This document shows, piece by piece, positions 12,001 through 46,063 of a stretch of 46,064 nucleotides of DNA. Origin of the DNA: Candidatus Shapirobacteria bacterium (lineage in GTDB: Bacteria; Patescibacteriota; Microgenomatia; UBA12405); NCBI GenBank assembly GCA_903825325.1, contig CAIKAI010000044.1:1-46064 (forward strand). The letters are read 5' to 3'. A program made the translations under genes and the position numbers. Position 1 is the stretch's first letter, and each line of letters opens with the position of its first letter. The notes under the pieces are model-generated. The model did not search any database, was not told the DNA's origin, and saw nothing but the letters and a program-made list of their open reading frames with translations.

Positions 12001-15000
12001 TTTTCCGGTTTTGGCGGTTTTATTGTACAAATGGATTGTTTGGTCGACCACTAAATTACTCCCTACCGTTAGCCCTCTCCGCGTAAACGGTTTACCCTTG
12101 GCCAGTACTTCCTTGACCAAGCCATCCAAAATCGTCAAATTATTATTTTCGAGTAAATCTTTTTTGCTCGCCAGCTCTGCTTGGGATTGAATTAATTGTT
12201 TCAAATTTGTTACTTCGGCTGATGGCACATATTTCTTTTCCGCGTCAGTGGCATACCCCGTCATCAAATTCGCTAATTTTTCTAAATCAGATTGGACTGA
12301 TTGGTAGTTGGGCGAACCCACATATCTATATTTGACCATTTTCAAGATTGTGTCCAAAGCGTCTTTGATACTTTTAACTTTTTGCCTCTGGTCATAACTA
12401 CTATTTTGATCATTTAATTTGTCCAATAAATTATTCACTTCATCAGCATATCTTTTTATTTTTCCATAGTCAGCCAAGCCATTTCCATTATTACTGTTGT
12501 ACTGCATATTACTCACATCATTACCCAGTTTTCCCAATTGATGTGTGTCCAATAGGCTATAGACATTATTAAGGGCAATATATTTAATTCGGCTTAAGGG
12601 CTCATTCATGTCGTAGGAAATTTGCCGTAGGGTATCTTTTAAATTCTGGTTGATTTTATCTAGTTGCACCACCAACAGTTTTACATTGCCCACTACAGCG
12701 TCTTGGACCTTAGTGCCTTTCACCAACTCCAAATCATTTGCCAACTTCCTTAAAATTGCAAGTAACTCATCGATTTTCGATTGTAATTGGCTAATTTTGT
12801 CGGCATCCTTTAATCCGTTCATTTGATCCAAAGATGTTTTACTCATTTGCACCAATTCATTGGCTCTTTCGACTGTCCCCTTGTAACTTTTGAAATTAAT
12901 ATAAATATCCTCCAACTCTGTCAGAGCTTTAACTTTTCTTTCCAACAAGGTTATTTCCCCAACCAAAATGGTTTTTTGTTTTTTGAGATATTGCACATCA
13001 TCGTTTTGATTTTGCGAATTGTCTCGACCGTCTTTAAGAATATTTCCCAAAGCCAGACCTAAGACATTATCGCTTTTATCAGTCACCATATTTTTCAAGG
13101 CCAACCGTCGACCTACCAAAATTTCTCGGATTTTTTGTTTATCTACTTGATTGGTAATCCCCGAAGAATTCAAAATTGTATCAATGTCATCCACTGACAA
13201 ACTATTCAATAAGCTCGCCGCTTGATTTTTAATTTCTTCGATTGTCAAATCTCCAAATAACGCCGCTGACAACGGATTAATATCTTTTGATCGCATTGTT
13301 TTTAATTCGGGAATCGAGTCGGTTGTCAAATCAGTCGCCGTTTTTCGGCCAGTTAATCCCTTAAACAGCAACGATCCACCATGGTCGGTCAGCATTACTT
13401 GACCATTTTTATCAGTTTGCAAATTACCGTATGGGTGTTCTGGACCAGTTCCCACCGCATCCCAATCGAGCAAATATGCTGCCGCTGCAAAATATGGTTT
13501 AGCTTGAGTTCGGTCTACGGCTAGGGTTTGTTTTAGCCCTTCCTCAAAATCAGTCAAGTAATAGACATTATTTCCGTCAGTTAATAATGACCCATTCAGA
13601 GTGGGGATTCCCAGTTTCTTATAAATTTGATTACTAACAAATTCCACTTGCGACTGGACCGGATCCTGATACTGTTTGACATAATATTTCTTGCCAGTAT
13701 ATTTATCCTGATAAGTCCCTCCCTGATTCGTTCCCAATTTTTCTCCAATTTTTTCCAGTCGATCAAAGGTTAACGGGCCATTGGCCAGATCATCAAACTT
13801 CTGTTTTGCTATTGGGTAAATACCCTCCACCAATTTCTTCTTTTCTGCCGCCGAATAACTACCGGTAATAAATTTATTTAATTGCGCTTCCAAGCCAGTT
13901 TGAATGATATTCCATCGTACCTTGGTCAAATCGGTTTGCTCCATCGCATTTTTTACTAGCACATATGTACTCATCCATTCACCAGCTCTGTTCTCACCTA
14001 AAGTGTTAATCACCAACATCGCCAATTCCGAATTACGTCCTCCGTCCTGGTCCGCCTGCACGATTAAATCTGTTCTCAATTTATCTACGTCCTGTTGTTG
14101 GGCCACCACCGTATCTTTTTGCTTAGCGCTGGCAAACTCCATTGGTAGATAGGTAAATTCATCTACCACTCCCGATAATTTGATTGTCTTGGAAATCACC
14201 GAGCTTTCAATTTCATTAAATTGCATTCGTCCTCGCGCCAACTCCGAGATTAACTTATTCAAACTTAAAATTTGCGTCAAATTTGTCGTTATCGGAATCT
14301 GACTATCAACACTTTTCTCCAAATTATTTACACTAATTCGTAAATTTTCCAAATCAGTCCAAGCCTGAGCGTCTCCCGTTCTTAAATGATCCGCCGTTGT
14401 GGCAATTTGTGCACTTAATTTCTTTCCCGTCTCCCCCATTTCTGTCGGATAGTTTTGATTAATATTCTCCACAAATACACCCAAAGTTTCCACCTTGGCC
14501 AATGCTTCACTCATAATTGTCTGTTTACCTTCACTGATCCTTTTTTGGATATCATCAATTCTTGCGAGTATGTTGGTTAGTCCAGTCTTTAAATCATTAG
14601 CCCCATCCACTTCCTCAACCAAACTTATCTGTTGATTAATTCTCTTTTTCCAATTCTCCAAATCGGTCGACAATGCTTCCAAATCGCTAAATGCTTGCTG
14701 TTTGTTTGCCAAACTAGTACTTCTTAAATTGTTCTTTATCTTATTGACCTTTGATTCTATTTCCCCCAAAGACACTGCATTATTAGCTTCTTTTCGCAAT
14801 TCATTGAGAGCATTTTGGGCTCTTATTTTGTCTACTTCTTTCTGAAGCCTGGCTTTATTTTCCGCTTTTGCTTCGGCTAGTGTAAATGCTTGTAACTTCA
14901 ACCTTATTTCTACTGCTGTTGTTAATCCAGCCAAATCAGTCTCCTTCATTCCTGCCTCTAAAGCTGCTTTCTTGGCTGCATCAAATTGCTCTTTAACCGC

Positions 15001-18000
15001 AGCAATATCTTTCTCAATGGTAGCTATCATTGCTTTATTTTTGTCAATTTGCTCCTGTCCAAGATTTAAATCCTCTGCTTGTTTTAGTAAATCCTTGGCT
15101 CGTTGCAATAAGTCCTCCAAATTTGTTTTCTTATTCTTCTCCAAATCAATTATTACTGCTAAACCATTGCTAGCCTCTGTCTTTTGTTTTGCTTCATTCG
15201 CTTGTTTATCGATCAAAACCTGATCCAGAGTCAATTGATTTGGATTAGCCGCCACCGCTACCTCGGCCGCTTTTAATCCAGCCTCAGTTTCCTTATTTGC
15301 TGCATCCATTTCTTGCTTAATTCTGGCTTTAATTGTCGCCACTACTTTATCAATATCCGCTTGGTTCGTGGCACTTTCTAATGCCTGATTCTCAAATAAA
15401 TCTAATTGAGGGTATTTAGAACGAACAGATTGTTTGGCTATACTTAACTGCTGTTGCGTCTCGAATTTTTTTGTTTTCTCCATTAAATTCTTAATATTTT
15501 CTGGCAACTCTCTACCGTCATACAAAACTTTATTATAGAAATTGACTAACTCTTCGAAACTTGTACTCTGAGGCAGATAATCAAATGTCTTCGATCCAAC
15601 TTCTTTTTTGAACGCTGCTATTAATTGGAGTTTTGCCCTTATTTCTACAAATGCATCAATAGATAGAGATTCCTTCAATTTACCCTTATCATTCATGGTA
15701 ATTTTTACAAAATCAGAATAATCGAAATACAAATCAGTCGGTTGATGATAATATCCAAAAATACCCGTCTCTTGATATAACTTTTCAAATTGATCAACCG
15801 CTTCCTTTGCTGTCAGTGGTAAATTGTCACTATAACCATTTAGGATTTTTTCCAATCGTCGATTTCGACTTGAAATATCTATTTTTTTGTTAGTATCTAT
15901 CACTACGATATCAGTGACTTTATTAGTTAAGAGATCGACGGTATGATCATCGAGCTTCATTCCTGAATTTATATACAACTCCGTAATTTTAGCTTTTACA
16001 TCGTTACGGTTTGAATTTTCATTAAAGTTCATTTCCAGAACGCTTTTTAGAATGTCACCAAAACCTTTTGTTGCCACTATCCAGTCTCCTTTATTATTCA
16101 ATCCCAGTGATCTGGCCGCCTCACCCAAAAGTGCCTCGCTGTTAGCATCTAAGGTCAAAGCATTCTTTATACTTAGCTTACTTGTCTCTATTTCATTAAG
16201 TAAAGCGTTATAGTCGTTTTTACCCATTACCCGACCCAATACATTTGGCCATAAAGTTAGTGGCTGTCGATCGAACATCGCCACGGCCGCCTTTACTCCA
16301 TATTTCATTTGCGCAACTCTGAATTCCTCAATTGCTCTAGTCACTAACTGTTTATAATAATCCCGTCTTTTTTCCAGCACCGCCTTCATATAAGGGCTAT
16401 TTATCCTCTCAATTGCCTCAGAGTAATAATCATACAAACCACCATCTGCTTTTTTCTCAAGCAAATAAGCTATTAATAATTCATCACTTATGTCATATCC
16501 CGTCGACAAATATGCAATCAACTCATTTTTTACGCGTGGGTAGATATAGTTTTCTTCCAACATCGTCACCCAAGAATAACTAGTCACATCCCCACTTGAA
16601 CCAAGTTTTATCTGACCATCCGTCCCAATTAAATTATTTAATTCAGTTATATTAAACCAATCCAACAAACTATTTAGTGAATGCCGATGTTCATGATCCG
16701 CTGCGCTTGGTGTGTAAGTTTTTTGTCTAAATCCCACTATGCTAATTCGTTGACCCTCAAATTTGATCGTACTATTAAAACCTCCGGAATAGTCAATTGC
16801 ATTTTGTAATTGCTTACTAATATTGTTCAGATTGGTCACTCGTCCAAAAGTACGCATTGTAATAAAGTCAGTATCATTATCAACTATAAAATCAAAACCC
16901 AATAAAGCGACTTTCACAACGACATTCCCTTGCGGTTTAACAAGATACATATCTTCAAACAGTTTGTTACCATCGATGGTCATTTCTCCGTTTTGATCTT
17001 TTGTTTGATATTGTTCTTGTAGCTCAGCTACCTTAGCCCGAGTTAATTGATAATATTTGAACATCGACAGAAGGTCTTTCCAATAGTTGTCCGGCAAACC
17101 CAACACTTGTGAATTATTTACAAATATTTCCCGTAATTTATTTTCTGAAATATCCGGAGTTGCTTCAATTTGCGCTACAATTTCTGCTTCCAGGGAGTTC
17201 AAAGCCGCTTCATGCAGGGCGTAATTCTGTCGATAATCAGCCATTAACTTCAAATTGGTCGCCAAATCTCTTTTGCTTGAACTGCTTCTAATAGCTGCTA
17301 ATTCCTTTACCGGATCAAAAAACCTCCGGATTAGCTTGCCATTTACCAACTCCACTTCTGTCTTAACCCCATTCTCATCAACTAAATATAAGGTCCTCGT
17401 TTCATTTAAGTTGAATTCCAATTCTTTCCCTGTTAGTTGTTTACCCGTAGCTTTGTCTACAATTGATCCTGTCTCAGCCGGTAATAACACCACACGACTC
17501 CCAAATATTTGAGTCTTTGCCAGTGTTACTCCAAATACTTCCAATGAATACTCCACCCCAACCCCTTCATCTGTCAATGTCAAAGTCGGACTTACATAGA
17601 AAACACCATGATCATCTGCATACGATATTAACATCGATGTCCCTACCACAAATTCCTTGGCAGAACTCATCACCCAAGCCCGATTGGCTTCGTCCCAAAC
17701 ATCAATTGTTAACTTGTCAGACATCATCTTACTATTTACCAACTGATATTTTCCATCAGTGTTCTTGACAAACTTAAGCGTATCCGACCCGTAGTTTCCA
17801 AAACTCAACTTCATCCATTTAAATCTTTTTTCCTGTTGCATTTTGGCTATCAAAGCCACATATTGTTTAACTAGCATATCTCTGACAACTTTCGGAATAG
17901 GCTCTACACTATCACGGGTCAATGATTCAATATATTTATCAATCGCCGGACCAATATACGATGTACCGTCGTCTACATCGGCATAAGGTAGAATCTCCAT

Positions 18001-33155: not shown

Positions 33156-33623
33156 TTACATTTCTTTATAATTCATCGTAAACCCGTGGGTCAACGCCAC
33201 AGCTACTGCGTCCGCCGCATGCGACGGCGATATCGATTGATCTAGATCAAGGGTATTGCGCACCATTATTTCCACCTGTTCTTTTTCCGCCCGACCATAC
33301 CCTACCAACGCCTGTTTTACCTGCAATGGTGTATATTCCGCCGCCGTCAGTCCGTTTTTTTGGCCACAAACTTTAATTACTCCGATTGCCTCGGCCACTT
33401 TTAAGGCCGATTTAGCATTTTTGGCAAAAAACAAAGTTTCAATTGCCATTTCGGATACTTTAAATTTTTTAATGATTTCCTCAAGATCTTTATATATTTT
33501 TCCCAACCTGTCCACGCTACTTTTTTTATTATCCGTCAAAATCACCCCACACACCACCAATTTTCCTTCATCAATTATTCCGTAGCCAGTATTTTCCAAT
33601 CCCGGGTCAATTCCTAATATCAT
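33156..33623 (-). CDS. ruvC: Crossover junction endodeoxyribonuclease RuvC
   Basis: 155 aa. MILGIDPGLENTGYGII (catalytic Asp), MAIETLFF (Glu), SHAADAVAVAL C-terminal motif. ATGA overlap with the upstream gene at 33620-33623. Confidence 0.9.
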   Translation of the reverse strand: MILGIDPGLENTGYGIIDEGKLVVCGVILTDNKKSSVDRLGKIYKDLEEIIKKFKVSEMAIETLFFAKNAKSALKVAEAIGVIKVCGQKNGLTAAEYTPLQVKQALVGYGRAEKEQVEIMVRNTLDLDQSISPSHAADAVAVALTHGFTMNYKEM

Positions 33624-34414
33624 TGCACTAATTTAACATTATTTTCGCTTGTCCCATCGTCGTACATTACTACTTGGGTAAATCTCGGCGTTTCTGTGTT
33701 CCGGTCCTTAGTAATTGCCCCTACCAGCACCGTTTCCCAGCCGTCAATCGCATAATCCGAACTGTAGTGTAAATGACCCGAGTAAGCCATCTGCACGTTG
33801 TTTTTCATCAAAATGTTTTTAAGCCAAACCGCTTCCGACGCCGTCGCCGGGCTATATTCTCCCATCAAATGTTTGGAGAAGTTATTCACCAATGGCATGT
33901 GAAATGCCACCACACAGTGCATCACAACACAAACTTGTATATCATTAGCTATCCACTTTTTCTGCTCTTCACCTAACCCTTGCCAATCACTATTATCAAT
34001 TAAAATTAGTTTCCAATTACCTACTACCAGGCTCTGATACTTATTTCCAAATAGCCAAATTTTTTTATAAATATCATGGTTCCCCGGCACCACCAAATAC
34101 TTAACACCACTCTCATCTAACACCTTCTTTATATCCTCTTGCTCCTTTAATGTCCCATTAATTGTCAAATCTCCATCTACCACCACCAAACTATCACCCT
34201 CATTCTTCGCCATATCTAAAGCCTTCTTTAGCTCAGCACCATCATCATGTACATCCGCCATTACCGCCAATTTATAAACAATATTTTTTTCTGTCGTACG
34301 GAACGGTTTCAAACCGTTCCCTACATCCTCAATTTTATTTATTTTTTTTGGCCATAATAAAAACAATCCAATAATAATCAATCCCATTCCCAATATAATC
34401 CAAACCCGTTTCAT
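33620..34414 (-). CDS. Membrane-anchored calcineurin-like metallophosphoesterase
   Basis: 264 aa. TM anchor VWIILGMGLIIIGLFLLW. Motifs ADVHDD, GDLT, VPGNHD, AFHMP, SGHLH. The CDS contains an in-frame copy of the palindromic element (34294-34323, encoding GNGLKPFRTT). Confidence 0.85.
   Translation of the reverse strand: MKRVWIILGMGLIIIGLFLLWPKKINKIEDVGNGLKPFRTTEKNIVYKLAVMADVHDDGAELKKALDMAKNEGDSLVVVDGDLTINGTLKEQEDIKKVLDESGVKYLVVPGNHDIYKKIWLFGNKYQSLVVGNWKLILIDNSDWQGLGEEQKKWIANDIQVCVVMHCVVAFHMPLVNNFSKHLMGEYSPATASEAVWLKNILMKNNVQMAYSGHLHYSSDYAIDGWETVLVGAITKDRNTETPRFTQVVMYDDGTSENNVKLVQ
34294..34323. repeat. Palindromic element copy 1 (core GGAACGGTTTcAAACCGTTCC at 34300-34320), in-frame inside the metallophosphoesterase CDS
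   Basis: tcgtacggaacggtttcaaaccgttcccta. It is 29/30 identical to 34429-34458, with a 10-bp perfect inverted repeat. Confidence 0.9.
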
Positions 34415-34567: not shown

Positions 34568-34594
34568 GATTTTGGAGTTTGGATTTTGGAGTTT
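34568..34594 (+). repeat. Two tandem copies of the 13-mer gattttggagttt, directly upstream of the murB -10-like box
   Basis: Copies at 34568-34580 and 34582-34594, separated by 1 nt. A third exact copy lies at 37614-37626. Confidence 0.85.
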
Positions 34595-34598
34595 ACGC

Positions 34599-34604
34599 TA
34601 TAAT
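34599..34604 (+). promoter_or_regulatory. -10-like TATAAT hexamer 6 nt upstream of the murB ATG; suggests a leaderless or near-leaderless transcript
   Basis: The tataat consensus lies at 34599-34604 and the ATG at 34611. There is no Shine-Dalgarno sequence between them, and no convincing -35 at 17-bp spacing. Confidence 0.3.
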
Positions 34605-34610
34605 GTGTCT

Positions 34611-35669
34611 ATGGATCTTTCCGATTTCCAAACCAATGTCCCCCTAGCCCCTTATACCACTCTCAAAATCGGCGGCTCTGCCGAATACTTTAAAATCGTT
34701 ACCAAGCAATCCGAGCTTTTTGAAGTTTTAAAATTTGTTTCAAAACAAATTGAAGATTGTAGTTTGAAGATTGAAGATTTTCATCTCCTCGGTCTCGGTT
34801 CAAATTGTTTAATTTCTGATTCTGGTCTCTCCGGTCTAACTATCATCAACAAAGCTTCTCAAATTAAAATTAAAAATGAAGATTCTAGATTGAAGATTGA
34901 AGATTTTTCTGTTACCTACACTCAAAGAAAAGAAAATGACCCCGAAATTTATTTGGACTTTTCCAAAATCGACTATGATGAATCTGACTTGCCCACTCAA
35001 GAAGTAGTTGTCACTTCTGGAACATCTCTCCCTTATGCCATCAATTATTTAATTTCTCAAGGCCTCACTGGCCTCCAGTGGTTTTCCTACATTCCCGGGA
35101 CTATCGGCGGTGCCGTTTATCAAAACATTCATGGTGGCAAATACCATTTCTCAGATTATCTTGTTTCCGTTAAAGTCTTTAACCTAGACACTGGCAAAAC
35201 TGAAATTTATAAAAAAGTTGATCTTGATTGGCGCTATGAAACCTCTTTTTTTCAACAACACCCCGAACAAATCATCCTCTCTGCTCGCCTTCGTTTGTTC
35301 AAAGGTGACGCTCAACTCGCCAAGAATGTTGTCTCTGCCTGGGTTGCTCAAAAAATCAAAGTTCAACCTATGAATTCCCCCGGCTCTGCATTTGCCAATC
35401 CCTCTCTCGAAATTTGTCAAAAGATTTGGGGGGAACAAAAATCTGCTGGCTGGATTATTGACCACGAACTAAATCTTAAAGGTTTTCAAATTGGTGATGC
35501 CCAAATTTCCCTTCAGCACAGTAATTTTTTTATCAACGCTGGCCATGCCACCTCTGCCGATTACAAAAAATTGATTGAATACGTCCAAAAACAGGTTAAA
35601 GGCAAATTTGGATTTGACTTAATTCCTGAAGTAAAATTATTAGGCTTTGGTGGTAAGGAACGGTTTTAA
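34611..35669 (+). CDS. murB: UDP-N-acetylenolpyruvoylglucosamine reductase MurB, with in-frame repeat insertions
   Basis: LAPYTTLKIGGSAEYF, GLGSNCLISD, IPGTIGGAVYQNIHGG, PGSAFANP. I prefer ATG 34611 over the track's TTG 34572, because the preceding 13 residues (EFGFWSLRYNVS) come from a direct-repeat/promoter-like tract. Confidence 0.85.
   Translation: MDLSDFQTNVPLAPYTTLKIGGSAEYFKIVTKQSELFEVLKFVSKQIEDCSLKIEDFHLLGLGSNCLISDSGLSGLTIINKASQIKIKNEDSRLKIEDFSVTYTQRKENDPEIYLDFSKIDYDESDLPTQEVVVTSGTSLPYAINYLISQGLTGLQWFSYIPGTIGGAVYQNIHGGKYHFSDYLVSVKVFNLDTGKTEIYKKVDLDWRYETSFFQQHPEQIILSARLRLFKGDAQLAKNVVSAWVAQKIKVQPMNSPGSAFANPSLEICQKIWGEQKSAGWIIDHELNLKGFQIGDAQISLQHSNFFINAGHATSADYKKLIEYVQKQVKGKFGFDLIPEVKLLGFGGKERF
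34749..34781 (+). repeat. murB internal 33-nt direct repeat, copy 1 (encodes IEDCSLKIEDF)
   Basis: attgaagattgtagtttgaagattgaagatttt. It is 30/33 identical to 34875-34907 and in the same reading frame. Confidence 0.9.
34875..34907 (+). repeat. murB internal 33-nt direct repeat, copy 2 (encodes NEDSRLKIEDF)
   Basis: aatgaagattctagattgaagattgaagatttt, lying 126 nt (42 codons) downstream of copy 1. Confidence 0.9.
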
Positions 35670-35691: not shown

Positions 35692-37638
35692 TTACTCATA
35701 CTTCAACGCGTTCAGTGCTGAGATTTGGCTCGCCCTCTTGGCCGGGTACCACCCCGTTATTACCCCTAAAATCAATGACGCGGCTAATATCCCCACCGAG
35801 AACCATCCATTCATTACAAATAAGTTCTGGCCGATTTGGGTGCTGTTAAACACTAGCCGATTTAGGATCCCTCCGATCACCCACCCCAGTCCTAGGCCGC
35901 CTATTCCTCCCACTCCCAGAATTAACACTGCTTCGGTCAACAACAATCTAGTTACATCCACATTGCTTGTTCCCATACTTTTCATCACGCCGATTTCCCG
36001 TGTTCTTTCCAATAACGACACTGTTAAGGTATTAAACATTCCTAGCAGCGCCACCACTAAAGCAATCGCCCCAAATGACCCCAATAAAAATCTAATAATC
36101 GCAAATAATTTGGCGATTTGCGCCAGCGTATCCACTACACTCCGTGTCGTCAACCCCATCGATTGAATTAACGATCGTACTTCTGGCAGTTGCTCTTCGG
36201 TTTTAGCCATCACCCTTACTAGTGAGTATTCTTTAATTCCTAAACTTTCCAAATCAGCCCGCGGCACCAAAATCACTGGCTTCTTAATGTCGTTGTACAC
36301 TCCTACCACGTTATATTTTTCCGGTTCCGACAATACCCGACCACTAATTTGTGGCAACACACTACTGGTAACTAAATACGACACCTCCACCTCCGACCCC
36401 AAAATCTTTTTATCGTCACTATTCCAGGCTTTTACCAATGCTTGGCTGACGATTATTTCTTTTTTATTCCCCTGCCACACTTTTATGGTCACATTATTAC
36501 TCACGGTATCCGTTTTCTTTTTGTCTTCCAACAACGTTACCAATTGCGCCGATTGAGTCGCCGTCCCCAATACCATCCCCTGACCACTTTCCAACATCTT
36601 TTCAATATCTTTGTCCACGGCCGACAATACATTTACGTTTTTCATATCCAAATAAACTTCTTTTTCTTCCTTAACATCGGTATAAACACCATCGCCCAAA
36701 CTGTCTCTAATTGGCATTTTTGCTTTGATCCACTTGCCTTGCAATTTCCCGTTGTTGGTTGCCACTCTTCCCAATCCTGAACTATCATCATAAACTCCAC
36801 CCCAGGCCACCTCACCCCGATAACTGTCTAAAATTGATCCGCGGATCCAACCCATCATCTTTCCCGTTGCCGCTGGTGCGTCGTAGGCGGGAATATATGT
36901 CTCATCTCGCAATCGAAAATCAATCGTCTCCGCTGGCATCGCCGACTCAGTCGCCACTCCGGCCACCTCACCTATTGTTTTTTGGGTAGCGTCTTTATTC
37001 AACAACTCTTGAATATCTGCCGTCCCATCATATTGTTTATCCGCTTCTTTTGAAAAATTTTTACCTGTCACAATTTTTATATCCGCCATCGCCAAATAAT
37101 TATTTGATAAGCCTGTTACCACCGTATCCACTTTCGAATTTTTATAAATTACCTGCCCCGCCAAATTAATCGCTTGATCCACTTTTTCGACTCCAGGTAT
37201 GACTTTGATTTTTCCCAAGACATCACTATTAATTTTTACCTTACTTGATTCCGAAGTTACCTCGGCCACTCGCAAGGCATCCGGCCAAATTATTTTTTGT
37301 GTCACCACTCCTTGCAGTCCGTAACCAAAAGACACTAACAACACCACTGCCCCAATTCCCACCGCCACCCCACCCACCGTCACCGCCATTTTTGATCGAC
37401 CTTTTACCAAGTTTCGATAAGCCAACCACATTGTTTGCTTCCAAGACAAGCTCCCCGACTGTGGTTTAATAATTTTTCCCAAATACATGAAATTCTCTTT
37501 AATTATCCGAATATGGCTTTTTATATCAATCAGTCTTCGATAATCATATCTAACTATACCAAAATACATCTTTTTCCCAATTTTCATCACTATTTTTTGG
37601 GTTTTGGTCTTTAGATTTTGGAGTTTATTAATTATCAT
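35692..37638 (-). CDS. MacB/FtsX-family ABC transporter permease with a large extracytoplasmic domain
   Basis: 648 aa. TM1 is MAVTVGGVAVGIGAVVLLVSFGYG, followed by an extracytoplasmic region of about 400 aa. C-terminal FtsX domain: LLERTREIGVMKSMGTSNVDVTRLLLTEAVLILGVGG. ATGA overlap with the ATPase gene at 37635-37638. An internal start (MYLGKII) cannot be excluded. Confidence 0.85.
   Translation of the reverse strand: MIINKLQNLKTKTQKIVMKIGKKMYFGIVRYDYRRLIDIKSHIRIIKENFMYLGKIIKPQSGSLSWKQTMWLAYRNLVKGRSKMAVTVGGVAVGIGAVVLLVSFGYGLQGVVTQKIIWPDALRVAEVTSESSKVKINSDVLGKIKVIPGVEKVDQAINLAGQVIYKNSKVDTVVTGLSNNYLAMADIKIVTGKNFSKEADKQYDGTADIQELLNKDATQKTIGEVAGVATESAMPAETIDFRLRDETYIPAYDAPAATGKMMGWIRGSILDSYRGEVAWGGVYDDSSGLGRVATNNGKLQGKWIKAKMPIRDSLGDGVYTDVKEEKEVYLDMKNVNVLSAVDKDIEKMLESGQGMVLGTATQSAQLVTLLEDKKKTDTVSNNVTIKVWQGNKKEIIVSQALVKAWNSDDKKILGSEVEVSYLVTSSVLPQISGRVLSEPEKYNVVGVYNDIKKPVILVPRADLESLGIKEYSLVRVMAKTEEQLPEVRSLIQSMGLTTRSVVDTLAQIAKLFAIIRFLLGSFGAIALVVALLGMFNTLTVSLLERTREIGVMKSMGTSNVDVTRLLLTEAVLILGVGGIGGLGLGWVIGGILNRLVFNSTQIGQNLFVMNGWFSVGILAASLILGVITGWYPAKRASQISALNALKYE
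37614..37626 (+). repeat. Third exact copy of the 13-mer gattttggagttt, at the ABC ATPase/permease junction and inside the annotated 5' end of the permease ORF
   Basis: Exact 13/13 match to the murB-upstream copies, in the same plus-strand orientation. Confidence 0.8.
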
Positions 37639-38321
37639 ATTTTCTCCTTTTCAATATAACCGTCTTTCATAAATATTCTTCGATCGGCCAACTTTAGAAA
37701 TGACTCATCATGAGTCACCATTAAAATGGTTTTACCTTCTTTTTTATTTAAGTTTACCAATAAGCTAATTAATTTTTTACCATTTTTACTATCCAAATTT
37801 CCCGTCGGTTCGTCGGCCACCACCATTTTTGGATCAACTACTAGTGCCCGCGCTAAACTTACCCGCTGTTGTTCTCCTCCCGACAAATCCATCGGTTTTT
37901 TATTGGCCATTTCTTCTAATTCCACCGTCTTTAATGCTGCCATCGCTTTCTCTTTTAATTCTTTTTGACTCAAATTTGCCAACATCAGTGGATAGGCCAC
38001 GTTTTCCCACACCGATAATGACTTAATCCAGTTACTTTGTTGAAAAACTATCCCCACATTGCGCCATCGATGTGCTGCCCGTTCATCTTCACTCATTGTG
38101 GCCAACCATTTATCCATCAAATGCACCCTTCCCCGGCTCGGGTCCTCCATTCCTAAAATTAAATGCAACAATGTCGATTTGCCACAGCCCGACGGTCCAA
38201 AAATAATCGCCATTTCCCCTTCCTTAATTTTTAAATTAATTTTTTTCAATACCCACACCCGTCGACTTCCCACCTTATATGACATCCCCACCCGCTTTAG
38301 ATCGACAATTATGTTGTTCAT
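37635..38321 (-). CDS. ABC transporter ATP-binding protein (MacB/LolD/FtsE-like)
   Basis: Walker A GPSGCGKST, Q-loop VFQQ, signature LSGGEQQRVSLARAL, Walker B VVADEPTGNLD, H-loop VTHD. ATGA overlap with the upstream giant gene at 38318-38321. Confidence 0.92.
   Translation of the reverse strand: MNNIIVDLKRVGMSYKVGSRRVWVLKKINLKIKEGEMAIIFGPSGCGKSTLLHLILGMEDPSRGRVHLMDKWLATMSEDERAAHRWRNVGIVFQQSNWIKSLSVWENVAYPLMLANLSQKELKEKAMAALKTVELEEMANKKPMDLSGGEQQRVSLARALVVDPKMVVADEPTGNLDSKNGKKLISLLVNLNKKEGKTILMVTHDESFLKLADRRIFMKDGYIEKEKI

Positions 38322-46063: not shown

What the first reader, a model, noticed from the sequence alone, without database searches (positions are those of the whole stretch)
35692..46063. 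A second giant surface protein is translationally coupled (ATGA overlaps) to a MacB/FtsX-type ABC system
The lectin/CBM/LamG/Fn3 protein (more than 2,581 aa) ends in an ATGA overlap with the ABC ATPase start (38318-38321). The ATPase overlaps the permease in the same way (37635-37638). The permease has an extracytoplasmic domain of about 400 aa. FtsEX/MacB-type systems are known to transmit ATP-driven conformational changes to extracellular partners, for example cell-wall hydrolase activators. Tight coupling suggests the giant adhesin-like protein and the ABC system work together in export, anchoring or mechanical activation. Two giant genes in one 46-kb window point to a cell-surface interaction locus.
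Basis: partly seen in the sequence, partly recalled or inferred. Interest (0 to 1): 0.6.

Follow-up and report, generated by a model that had tools for sequence, protein, structure and literature searches.

The report
Giant surface protein with dedicated ABC
In an ultra-small (CPR, Shapirobacteria-type) bacterium, a surface protein of more than 3,600 residues is encoded back-to-back with its own MacB/FtsX-type ABC ATPase and permease, a three-gene unit kept across the whole phylum and not described in the papers I could search, so the ABC pair probably handles the giant protein outside the membrane.

Summary
On the minus strand, a frame of at least 2,581 codons (38318-46063, cut by the contig end) ends in an ATGA overlap with a 228-aa ABC ATPase. 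That gene ends in a second ATGA overlap with a 648-aa MacB/FtsX-fold permease whose ectodomain is about 385 aa.

The gene order is conserved. ATPase and permease directly follow a homologous giant gene in 73 of 80 loci drawn from all prokaryote genomes, and in 35 of 40 evenly sampled genomes of the phylum. Among 41 close relatives the two parts co-occur 16 of 16.

The shared part of the giant protein is its last ~1,000 residues: a chain of FN3-like domains ending in a strongly conserved amphipathic tail (TPKAT..ALDLV..L...FGF). The N-terminal heads vary.

The missing N-terminus, with a signal peptide, very probably lies on contig C161.

Type VII ABC systems work outside the membrane, so ABC-driven export is unlikely. 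Docking, actuation or release through the tail is my inference and is untested.

I found no paper on this unit. This scan has noted the same unit at least eight times on other DNA.

The parts
38318..46063 (-). 3' part (2,581 codons plus stop) of the giant surface-protein gene; the 5' end runs off the contig
   Evidence: The window is the whole contig. Complete orthologues are 3,119-3,496 aa.
38321..41656 (-). Conserved C-terminal module (residues 1470-2581): a string of about 10 FN3-like beta-sandwich domains. This is the part shared by all cassette-linked giants.
   Evidence: BLASTP to relatives covers about residues 1470-2581 at 29-38% identity. Alignment A3 has 64 sequences. AF2 model pLDDT 77.6, all-beta domains. 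Foldseek matches titin/MyBP-C and FN3 arrays.
39083..39589 (-). FN3 / Pur_ac_phosph_N-type domains seen by Pfam (residues 2159-2327)
38321..38386 (-). C-terminal amphipathic tail (residues 2560-2581, VAESALDVVLKNLEDVFGFLNL); candidate docking or sorting handle
   Evidence: Invariant or near-invariant A, V, L, F, F columns in A1. Present in all 73 + 40 cassette giants examined. Predicted helix. Helical hydrophobic moment 0.45, in the top 1% of 18-mers of this protein.
45332..45754 (-). Internal repeat, copy 1 (residues 104-244)
   Evidence: 51% identical to residues 575-684, E 2e-30.
43931..44341 (-). Internal repeat, copy 2 (residues 575-711)
   Evidence: Repeats of this kind probably explain the assembly break.
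38318..38321 (-). ATGA overlap: giant stop / ATPase start
   Evidence: Junction gaps in 73 loci cluster at -4 to +5 nt.
37635..38321 (-). ABC ATPase, 228 aa, catalytic motifs intact
   Evidence: ABC_tran 4e-35. Nearest NCBIfam models are LolD, FtsE and DevA, all below their equivalog cut-offs. Motifs located.
37635..37638 (-). ATGA overlap: ATPase stop / permease start, with AAGGAG at 37644-37649
35692..37638 (-). Type VII (MacB/FtsX-fold) ABC permease, 648 aa
   Evidence: Pfam MacB_PCD + FtsX. PDB sequence hits to MacB, YtrF and LolF. AF2 model pLDDT 83.8. Foldseek: MacB 5gko E 3e-21, 5xu1, LolCDE 9rld, YtrEF 9o9x.
36139..37290 (-). Enlarged extracytoplasmic domain of the permease (about residues 117-500), with an extra beta-rich insertion at about 238-337 containing invariant G263, G280 and W303
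   Evidence: Secondary structure of the AF2 model. Invariant columns of the 49-sequence alignment A2.

Best explanation
This is one copy of a conserved three-gene module of Patescibacteria (CPR).

**Gene 1** encodes a Sec-exported giant modular surface protein. It has a variable lectin-like N-terminal 'head', a conserved C-terminal stalk of about 1,000 residues built from FN3-like domains, and a conserved amphipathic C-terminal tail.

**Genes 2 and 3** encode a dedicated type VII (MacB/Lol/FtsEX-fold) ABC ATPase and permease.

**Proposed mechanism.**
- The giant protein crosses the membrane by Sec, and its signal peptide is probably cleaved at the conserved A-L-(A/S/T)|E site.
- Its membrane-proximal C-terminal end (tail plus last FN3 domains) is then the ligand of the permease's ectodomain or stalk cavity.
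- ATP binding and hydrolysis in the cytoplasm are transmitted through the stalk helices (mechanotransmission) to grip, actuate or let go of that end.
- The ABC pair therefore serves as the dock and actuator of the adhesin-like protein, not as its export channel.

**Shown here:** the gene anatomy, the folds, the intact ATPase motifs, the phylum-wide linkage and co-occurrence, and the conserved tail.

**Inferred:** physical contact, the tail as the handle, signal-peptide cleavage, and the direction of the work.

**My odds:** direct action of the ABC pair on the giant protein about 0.6. Within that, hold/actuate is about 0.35 and one-way extraction/release about 0.25.
For: **Linkage**
- ATGA overlaps and no intergenic space.
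- The same order in 15 of 16 relatives, 73 of 80 loci (63 split, 10 with ATPase and permease fused) and 35 of 40 evenly sampled genomes of the phylum.
- Among 41 relatives, 16 genomes have both parts and none has the giant alone. Two have the permease alone, and both are contig-end cases.
- No other gene is conserved with the unit, so the giant is the only constant partner.
- Several tandem giants can share one ABC pair.

**What is conserved in the giant**
- Exactly the C-terminal ~1,000 residues and the extreme tail, while the heads vary (LamG, Kelch, DUF2341 and others).
- Tail subtype tracks permease class: FGF tails go with long or fused permeases, GW tails with 399-aa permeases.

**Export route and ABC type**
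- Full-length homologues have N-terminal signal sequences with a conserved AxA-like site.
- The probable N-terminus of this gene on contig C161 has one too.
- The permease has the type VII fold and the ATPase motifs are intact.
- Type VII systems do their work outside the membrane and several bind extracytoplasmic protein partners: FtsEX-EnvC, YbbAP-TesA, LolCDE-lipoprotein, Aat-dispersin (PMC5985334, PMC12646458, PMC7943197).
Against:
- Linkage is not absolute. In the closest orthologous genome (G017) the permease sits on another contig behind leuS, while giant and ATPase stay adjacent.
- 5 of 40 and about 4 of 80 tail-bearing genes have no ABC gene directly downstream.
- An earlier check within this scan (e1-1314616) reported lower linkage for its own family definition (151 of 227) and priced the 'lasting load' reading low.
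- The tail helix has only moderate model confidence (pLDDT about 57-59).
- A static anchor would not need an active ATPase.
- Signal-peptide cleavage is inferred from sequence only.
Confidence: 0.6

Rival explanations
1. Lol/Aat-like one-way release. After Sec export, the amphipathic tail (or an uncleaved signal anchor) holds the giant protein in the outer leaflet. The ABC pair extracts it catalytically and releases the protein to the wall, S-layer or cell surface. The tail then acts as a C-terminal sorting signal rather than a permanent dock.
For: - Most type VII systems remove amphipathic or lipidic moieties from the membrane: LolCDE, Aat, HrtBA, YbbAP, YknYZ (PMC5985334, PMC7943197, PMC12646458).
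- The tail is amphipathic with aromatic residues.
- One ABC pair can follow several tandem giants, and some tail-bearing giants have no adjacent ABC pair. That fits a shared service machine.
- The ATPase is intact.
Against: - There is no lipobox, acyltransferase, carrier or acceptor gene in or near the unit.
- The tail is too polar for a membrane-spanning anchor (mean hydrophobicity 0.29).
- Tight translational coupling suggests comparable amounts of the proteins, as in a complex.
Confidence: 0.25
2. Indirect link. The ABC pair handles some other envelope substrate, such as a lipid, glycolipid or peptide, or protects against one. That substrate is needed wherever the giant protein is made, without direct contact between the proteins.
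For: - MacB-family pumps of monoderm bacteria often act on peptides or lipid-linked molecules (PMC5985334).
- No contact has been shown.
- The permease can be encoded away from the giant gene (G017).
Against: - The only constant neighbour across at least five CPR classes is the giant's conserved C-terminal module.
- Presence and absence match strictly.
- Tail type tracks permease type.
- Ordinary ~410-aa MacB-like permeases exist elsewhere in the same genome without such a neighbour (contigs C160 and C56).
Confidence: 0.12
3. The ABC pair is the export channel of the giant protein (a type-1-secretion-like reading of the reader's 'export').
For: A conserved C-terminal signal-like tail lies next to an ABC system.
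Against: - The permease has the four-helix type VII fold, not a T1SS/PCAT exporter fold. This fold has no transmembrane pathway (PMC5985334).
- Homologues have N-terminal Sec signals.
- No adaptor or outer-membrane component is encoded nearby.
Confidence: 0.03

Closest known systems
FtsEX with its extracytoplasmic partner (EnvC; PcsB, CwlO, RipC)
   Same: A type VII ABC ATPase and a four-helix permease whose ectodomain holds a protein partner outside the membrane and transmits ATP-driven movement to it. There is no transport across the membrane.
   Different: - The permease and ATPase score far below the FtsX/FtsE equivalog cut-offs (25 vs 225-255 bits; 206 vs 265 bits).
- The ectodomain is about 385 aa with Sabre-type and extra inserted domains, rather than the small FtsX lobe.
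- The partner is a >3,600-aa FN3/lectin-type protein with no coiled-coil or hydrolase-activator domain.
- The partner is encoded in the same operon.
MacB / MacAB-TolC and monoderm MacB-like pumps (Spr0694-0695, YknYZ, YtrEF)
   Same: These are the best structural matches (5gko, 5xu1, 9o9x). They share the MacB_PCD + FtsX domain pair, and in about 10 of 80 loci the ATPase and permease are fused as in MacB.
   Different: - No membrane-fusion adaptor gene is present.
- The MacB equivalog score is 65 against a cut-off of 966.
- The ectodomain is nearly twice as large.
- The unit is linked to a giant protein rather than to drugs or peptides.
LolCDE and the Aat (AatPABCD) dispersin system
   Same: Type VII ABC machines whose substrate is a Sec-exported protein held at the outer face of the cytoplasmic membrane. 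In Aat the substrate gene is part of the same locus (PMC7943197).
   Different: - There is no lipobox or N-terminal acylation site, and no acyltransferase, carrier or outer-membrane duct.
- The candidate handle is a C-terminal amphipathic helix.
- The cargo is at least 300 times larger than dispersin.
- The host is probably a monoderm.
YbbAP-TesA (E. coli)
   Same: A type VII ABC pair forming a complex with an extracytoplasmic protein encoded next door (PMC12646458; Foldseek hit 9ge6).
   Different: The partner there is a small lipid hydrolase, and the complex extracts hydrophobic compounds. No enzyme domain was found in the window's part of the giant protein.
C-terminal sorting signals (LPXTG/sortase, PEP-CTERM, PGF-CTERM)
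   Same: The overall layout of the giant protein matches: N-terminal signal peptide, variable distal head, conserved stalk, then a short conserved motif (TPKAT) followed by a C-terminal helix, often with basic residues at the end.
   Different: The helix is amphipathic, not a hydrophobic transmembrane segment. The co-encoded machine is an ABC system, not a transpeptidase.

Membership tests
Type VII ABC transporter superfamily (MacB/LolCDE/FtsEX fold) | Permease with four TM helices, a large extracytoplasmic domain between TM1 and TM2, and long stalk helices | tested here: met
   AF2 model: helices 81-116, 501-544, 559-597 and 611-638; ectodomain about 117-500.
Type VII ABC transporter superfamily (MacB/LolCDE/FtsEX fold) | FtsX C-terminal domain (PF02687) and MacB periplasmic core domain (PF12704) | tested here: met
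   69.9 and 52.8 bits, both above the gathering cut-offs.
Type VII ABC transporter superfamily (MacB/LolCDE/FtsEX fold) | Structural similarity to solved members | tested here: met
   Foldseek: 5gko 3e-21, 5xu1 4e-19, 9rld 6e-19, 9o9x 3e-16.
Type VII ABC transporter superfamily (MacB/LolCDE/FtsEX fold) | Cognate ABC ATPase with intact catalytic motifs | tested here: met
   Walker A at 42, signature at 146, Walker B-Glu at 166-171, H-loop at 203. ABC_tran 4e-35.
FtsEX proper (cell division) | Scores above the FtsX / FtsE equivalog cut-offs | tested here: not met
   FtsX models score 21-25 bits against cut-offs of 225-255; FtsE scores 205.9 against 264.85.
FtsEX proper (cell division) | Partner with a coiled-coil / LytM, CHAP or NlpC-P60 module | tested here: not met
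   No such Pfam or NCBIfam domain was found in the giant protein.
MacAB-type tripartite or adaptor-dependent pump | Membrane-fusion (MacA/YknX-type) adaptor gene in the operon | tested here: not met
   No conserved third gene in 80 loci; the largest neighbour family occurs in 11 loci and is a 186-aa single-TM protein.
MacAB-type tripartite or adaptor-dependent pump | MacB equivalog score | tested here: not met
   NF007826 scores 65 bits (permease) and 170 bits (ATPase) against a cut-off of 966.
LolCDE / Aat lipoprotein-handling systems | LolC/E and LolD equivalog scores | tested here: not met
   TIGR02212 scores 33 against 362; TIGR02211 scores 222 against 308.
LolCDE / Aat lipoprotein-handling systems | Acylated substrate (lipobox Cys or N-terminal Gly with an AatD-type acyltransferase) | tested here: not met
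   The N-termini of full-length homologues and of the C161 ORF have no lipobox. No acyltransferase recurs nearby.
Type 1 secretion substrate / exporter | Type IV-fold ABC exporter with adaptor and outer-membrane protein; substrate without a Sec signal | tested here: not met
   The permease has the type VII fold. Homologues have N-terminal signals. No adaptor is present.
Sortase-type C-terminal sorting signal | Motif followed by a hydrophobic TM segment and a basic tail | tested here: not met
   The tail contains D, K, N, E and D. Mean hydrophobicity is 0.29 and hydrophobic moment 0.45, so it is amphipathic and not TM-like.
CPR giant-FN3-protein + ABC cassette (undescribed; noted earlier in this scan) | Conserved C-terminal FN3 stalk with amphipathic tail, directly followed by an ABC ATPase and an FtsX-fold permease | tested here: met
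CPR giant-FN3-protein + ABC cassette (undescribed; noted earlier in this scan) | Physical interaction between the tail/stalk and the permease | not testable with these tools
   No multimer prediction or experiment was available.

The most novel reading that the evidence does not exclude
The conserved C-terminal element is a short motif (TPKAT in this branch) followed by an amphipathic helix ending in FGF or GW. It may be a new class of C-terminal sorting or docking signal. A type VII ABC machine would read it as the CPR way of attaching, deploying or releasing the giant adhesins that contact host cells. Functionally this would be the counterpart of sortase/LPXTG or Lol in bacteria that live as epibionts.
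Probability: 0.25. Interest if true: 0.8.

Novelty: new variant of a known kind. Interest (0 to 1): 0.58.

Why it matters
CPR/Patescibacteria make up a large share of bacterial diversity, and the cultivated ones live attached to other microbes. Apart from type IV pili, the molecules that mediate contact are largely unknown.

A unit present in roughly a fifth of sampled genomes of the phylum (72 of 400 at E <= 1e-40), often in several copies, ties the largest surface proteins to a dedicated ATP-driven envelope machine. That makes it a concrete, testable candidate for the attachment apparatus.

For the ABC field it would add a new partner class to the type VII mechanotransmission family: a giant FN3-stalk protein with a C-terminal handle. 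It would also give a defined peptide (the tail) to test for binding and ATPase stimulation.

Tried and rejected
- **Extending the contig.** The window is the whole contig, and no other contig end overlaps it by a k-mer. The N-terminus was found instead by homology on contig C161.
- **A near-identical strain contig** (L135; 98% protein identity over the giant's C-terminal 382 residues, 95.5% nucleotide identity over the cassette) breaks in the same repeat region. Its first 53 nt are unrelated, so it does not supply the N-terminus.
- **Pfam on 450-aa pieces of the N-terminal two thirds** at E <= 1 gave only a sub-threshold CBM_4_9. A PDB sequence search of the giant gave only one weak FN3 hit.
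- **Foldseek of the stalk model** returns generic FN3/Ig strings (titin, cytokine receptors, GhpA base) and no specific relative.
- **A conserved fourth gene** (adaptor, acyltransferase, regulator, the other giant) was not found.
- **Literature searches** on CPR with MacB/FtsX, giant proteins, or Saccharibacteria with FtsX found no description of the unit.
- **Tail type against permease class** correlates perfectly, but I treat this as suggestive only because phylogeny confounds it.
- **Non-CPR hits to the C-terminal profile** (Riflebacteria, Eisenbacteria and others) lack the tail. They match through FN3 repeats only, so they are not counted as members.
Full report
**1. What is in the sequence**

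The window is the whole 46,064-bp contig C44 of a 1.25-Mb, 184-contig genome. Three same-strand (minus) genes fill 35692-46063:
- a frame of 2,581 codons that is open to the contig end (38318-46063);
- a 228-aa ABC ATPase (37635-38321);
- a 648-aa permease (35692-37638).

Both junctions are ATGA overlaps, read directly. The permease start has a canonical AAGGAG 5 nt upstream. The ATPase start has no clear Shine-Dalgarno sequence, which fits translational coupling.

There is no terminator-like site between the genes, and promoter-like sites do not exceed the shuffled expectation. The next gene, murB, is convergent.

The organism is a CPR/Patescibacteria bacterium.

**2. The ABC pair**

- The ATPase has intact Walker A, signature, Walker B-Glu and H-loop motifs. 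Its nearest NCBIfam models are LolD, FtsE and DevA, all below their equivalog cut-offs.
- The permease carries Pfam MacB_PCD and FtsX. It matches MacB, YtrF and LolF chains by sequence.
- Its AF2 model (49-sequence alignment, pLDDT 83.8) shows four TM helices with long stalk helices and an ectodomain at about residues 117-500.
- Foldseek ranks MacB (5gko, 3e-21), the pneumococcal MacB-like 5xu1, LolCDE and YtrEF first.

It is therefore a type VII ABC system. It is not FtsEX, MacB or LolCDE proper, because the equivalog scores are far below cut-off. The ectodomain is nearly twice the usual size. It holds an inserted beta-rich segment (about 238-337) with invariant G263, G280 and W303.

**3. The giant protein**

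*Window part.* Pfam sees only fn3 and Pur_ac_phosph_N near the C-terminus, plus a sub-threshold CBM_4_9. There are internal repeats: 104-244 matches 575-711, 740-838 matches 1305-1411, and 2103-2244 matches 2424-2562.

*Stalk.* The AF2 model of residues 1470-2581 (64-sequence alignment, pLDDT 77.6) is a string of about ten beta-sandwich domains ending in a short helix. Foldseek finds only generic FN3/Ig arrays.

*Tail.* The very end, VAESALDVVLKNLEDVFGFLNL, is an amphipathic helix. Its hydrophobic moment is 0.45, in the top 1% of 18-mers of this protein.

*Missing N-terminus.*
- Contig C161 ends in a 3'-open ORF of 1,055 aa with an N-terminal hydrophobic signal (…LLLIIGLNW…VLALA|ES) and a Laminin_G_3 domain.
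- Complete orthologues from metagenomes (3,280-3,496 aa; 54-64% identical in the C-terminal region) align with that ORF at their N-termini (43-46% identity over about 750 aa). They align with the C44 frame over their C-terminal 1,750 aa (48-52%).
- The genome holds only one C-terminal module.
- C161 and C44 are therefore very probably two pieces of one gene of at least 3,636 codons, broken at repeats.
- A near-identical strain contig breaks in the same region.

**4. Is the arrangement conserved?**

Yes.
- *Close relatives.* In 40 relatives, 18 have the long permease. Wherever the upstream DNA is visible (16 genomes), 15 show big protein, then ATPase, then permease. The big protein is homologous to residues ~1470-2581 of the query.
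- *All GTDB genomes.* A profile of the last 320 residues (A1) found 307 loci. Of the best 80, 73 have the ATPase and permease directly downstream (63 split, 10 fused into one MacB-like ORF). Junction gaps are mostly -4 to +5 nt. The loci come from Shapiro-, Roizman-, Levy-, Davies- and Woesebacteria, WWE3, Saccharibacteria, Doudna- and Moranbacteria.
- *Phylum sample.* In an even sample of 400 genomes of the phylum, 72 have a strong match at E <= 1e-40. Taking the best match in each of 40 different genomes, 35 have both ABC genes directly downstream.
- *Presence and absence.* In the 41 relatives: 16 have both parts, 0 have the giant only, 2 have the permease only (both cut by contig ends), and 23 have neither.
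- *Other neighbours.* No further gene family accompanies the unit in more than 11 of 80 loci.

Exceptions exist.
- In G017, the closest orthologue, giant and ATPase stay adjacent but the permease lies behind leuS on another contig.
- Some giants sit in tandem arrays that share one ABC pair or have none downstream.

**5. What is conserved in the partner**

The heads differ between lineages: LamG, Kelch propellers, DUF2341 and others appear in the precomputed Pfam lists. The shared parts are the stalk and above all the tail. Its consensus is …TITPKATxSALDLVVxNLSxxFGFL in this branch, and …SV(L/F)D(L/I)(I/V)xxS(L/F)xxx(L/F)GW(L/I)F in others.

FGF tails go with long-ectodomain or fused permeases, and GW tails with 399-aa permeases. 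This is suggestive but confounded by ancestry.

Against 1.84 billion cluster representatives, the profile finds 2,597 proteins at E <= 1e-30. In 101 of the best 150 the module ends at the protein's own C-terminus. Non-CPR hits lack the tail.

**6. Mechanism**

Established knowledge:
- Type VII ABC systems have no transmembrane substrate path. They convert ATP binding and hydrolysis into movements of their stalk and ectodomain (PMC5985334).
- Known uses are gripping a protein partner (FtsEX-EnvC, YbbAP-TesA; PMC12646458) or extracting and expelling molecules from the outer face of the membrane (LolCDE, Aat-dispersin, MacAB; PMC7943197).

Export of the giant through the ABC pair is therefore unlikely, and homologues carry Sec-type signals anyway.

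The layout resembles wall-anchored adhesins: cleavable-looking signal, variable head, conserved stalk, conserved C-terminal handle. I therefore favour a model in which the C-terminal end is held by the permease and the ATPase cycle grips, moves or releases it.

My odds:
- direct action on the giant protein, about 0.6 (hold/actuate about 0.35, one-way release about 0.25);
- indirect link, about 0.12;
- export channel, about 0.03.

Nothing here shows contact, and that is the main gap.

**7. Novelty and context**

Searches of the open literature found general remarks on large FN3-bearing surface proteins in Patescibacteria (PMC13059738, PMC11809585). They found no description of this unit.

Public databases name the giants only as 'fibronectin type III', 'LamG-like' or 'DUF2341' domain proteins.

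Within this scan the same unit has been reported at least eight times on other genomes. One later check put linkage at 151 of 227 for its own definition and priced the 'motor with a lasting load' reading low. My own counts (73 of 80, 35 of 40, 16 of 16) are for the tail-bearing family defined by profile A1, using the best copy per genome. They may be somewhat optimistic for that reason.

I class it as a new variant of a known kind: a type VII ABC system with an extracytoplasmic protein partner.

**8. Limits**
- No multimer prediction.
- Signal-peptide cleavage was judged by eye.
- The join of C161 to C44 rests on homology, not on reads.

Noticed in passing
G000 contig C161 (L129) 3148-6312 (+): A 3'-open ORF of 1,055 aa with a signal/anchor and a Laminin_G_3 domain. 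It is very probably the N-terminal part of the window's second giant gene. Upstream on that contig lie mreB and a WecG/TagA-type glycosyltransferase.
   Followed up: yes
L135 (ENA GROS21-1 scaffold_251) 9993-17271: A closely related strain (95.5% nucleotide identity over the cassette) has the same synteny. It carries an extra abhydrolase gene and a BrnT/BrnA toxin-antitoxin pair between murB and ruvC. Its copy of the window's first giant gene is called at 5,945 aa, against more than 10,736 aa here.
   Followed up: no
L032 (G017:C36) and L134 (G017:C19): In the closest orthologous genome, giant and ATPase remain adjacent but the permease lies directly behind leuS on another contig. leuS is also a recurrent neighbour of the cassette (9 of 80 loci).
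   Followed up: partly
L073 and other loci: Many TPA MAG records titled 'uncultured Gammaproteobacteria' or 'Pseudomonadales bacterium' are evidently Patescibacteria. For example, CAZCYZ010000003.1 (118,279 bp) equals G022:C3, which GTDB places in the same family as this genome. The record titles are unreliable.
   Followed up: partly
L132 (G302:C17) 3023-5202: Judged by eye from the C-terminal sequence and gene sizes (no domain search), secD/secF-like genes lie directly downstream of two tandem tail-bearing giant genes that have no ABC pair next to them.
   Followed up: no
L131 (G225:C3): An array of three tail-bearing giants, then ATPase plus a 399-aa permease, then a fourth giant, then a fused ATPase-permease. 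Cassettes duplicate, and several giants can share one ABC pair.
   Followed up: partly
L054 9805-10365 and 10 other loci: A ~186-aa single-TM protein follows the permease in 11 of 80 loci. Its function is unknown.
   Followed up: no
window 33620-33623: The metallophosphoesterase gene (33620-34414) and ruvC (33156-33623) also overlap by 4 nt. ATGA-type overlaps are common in this compact genome and are not by themselves evidence of a functional link.
   Followed up: no
window 34572-35669 (+): murB has an unusually long N-terminal half. Pfam FAD_binding_4 matches only residues 123-210, and a repeated 'LKIEDF' motif suggests an insertion.
   Followed up: no
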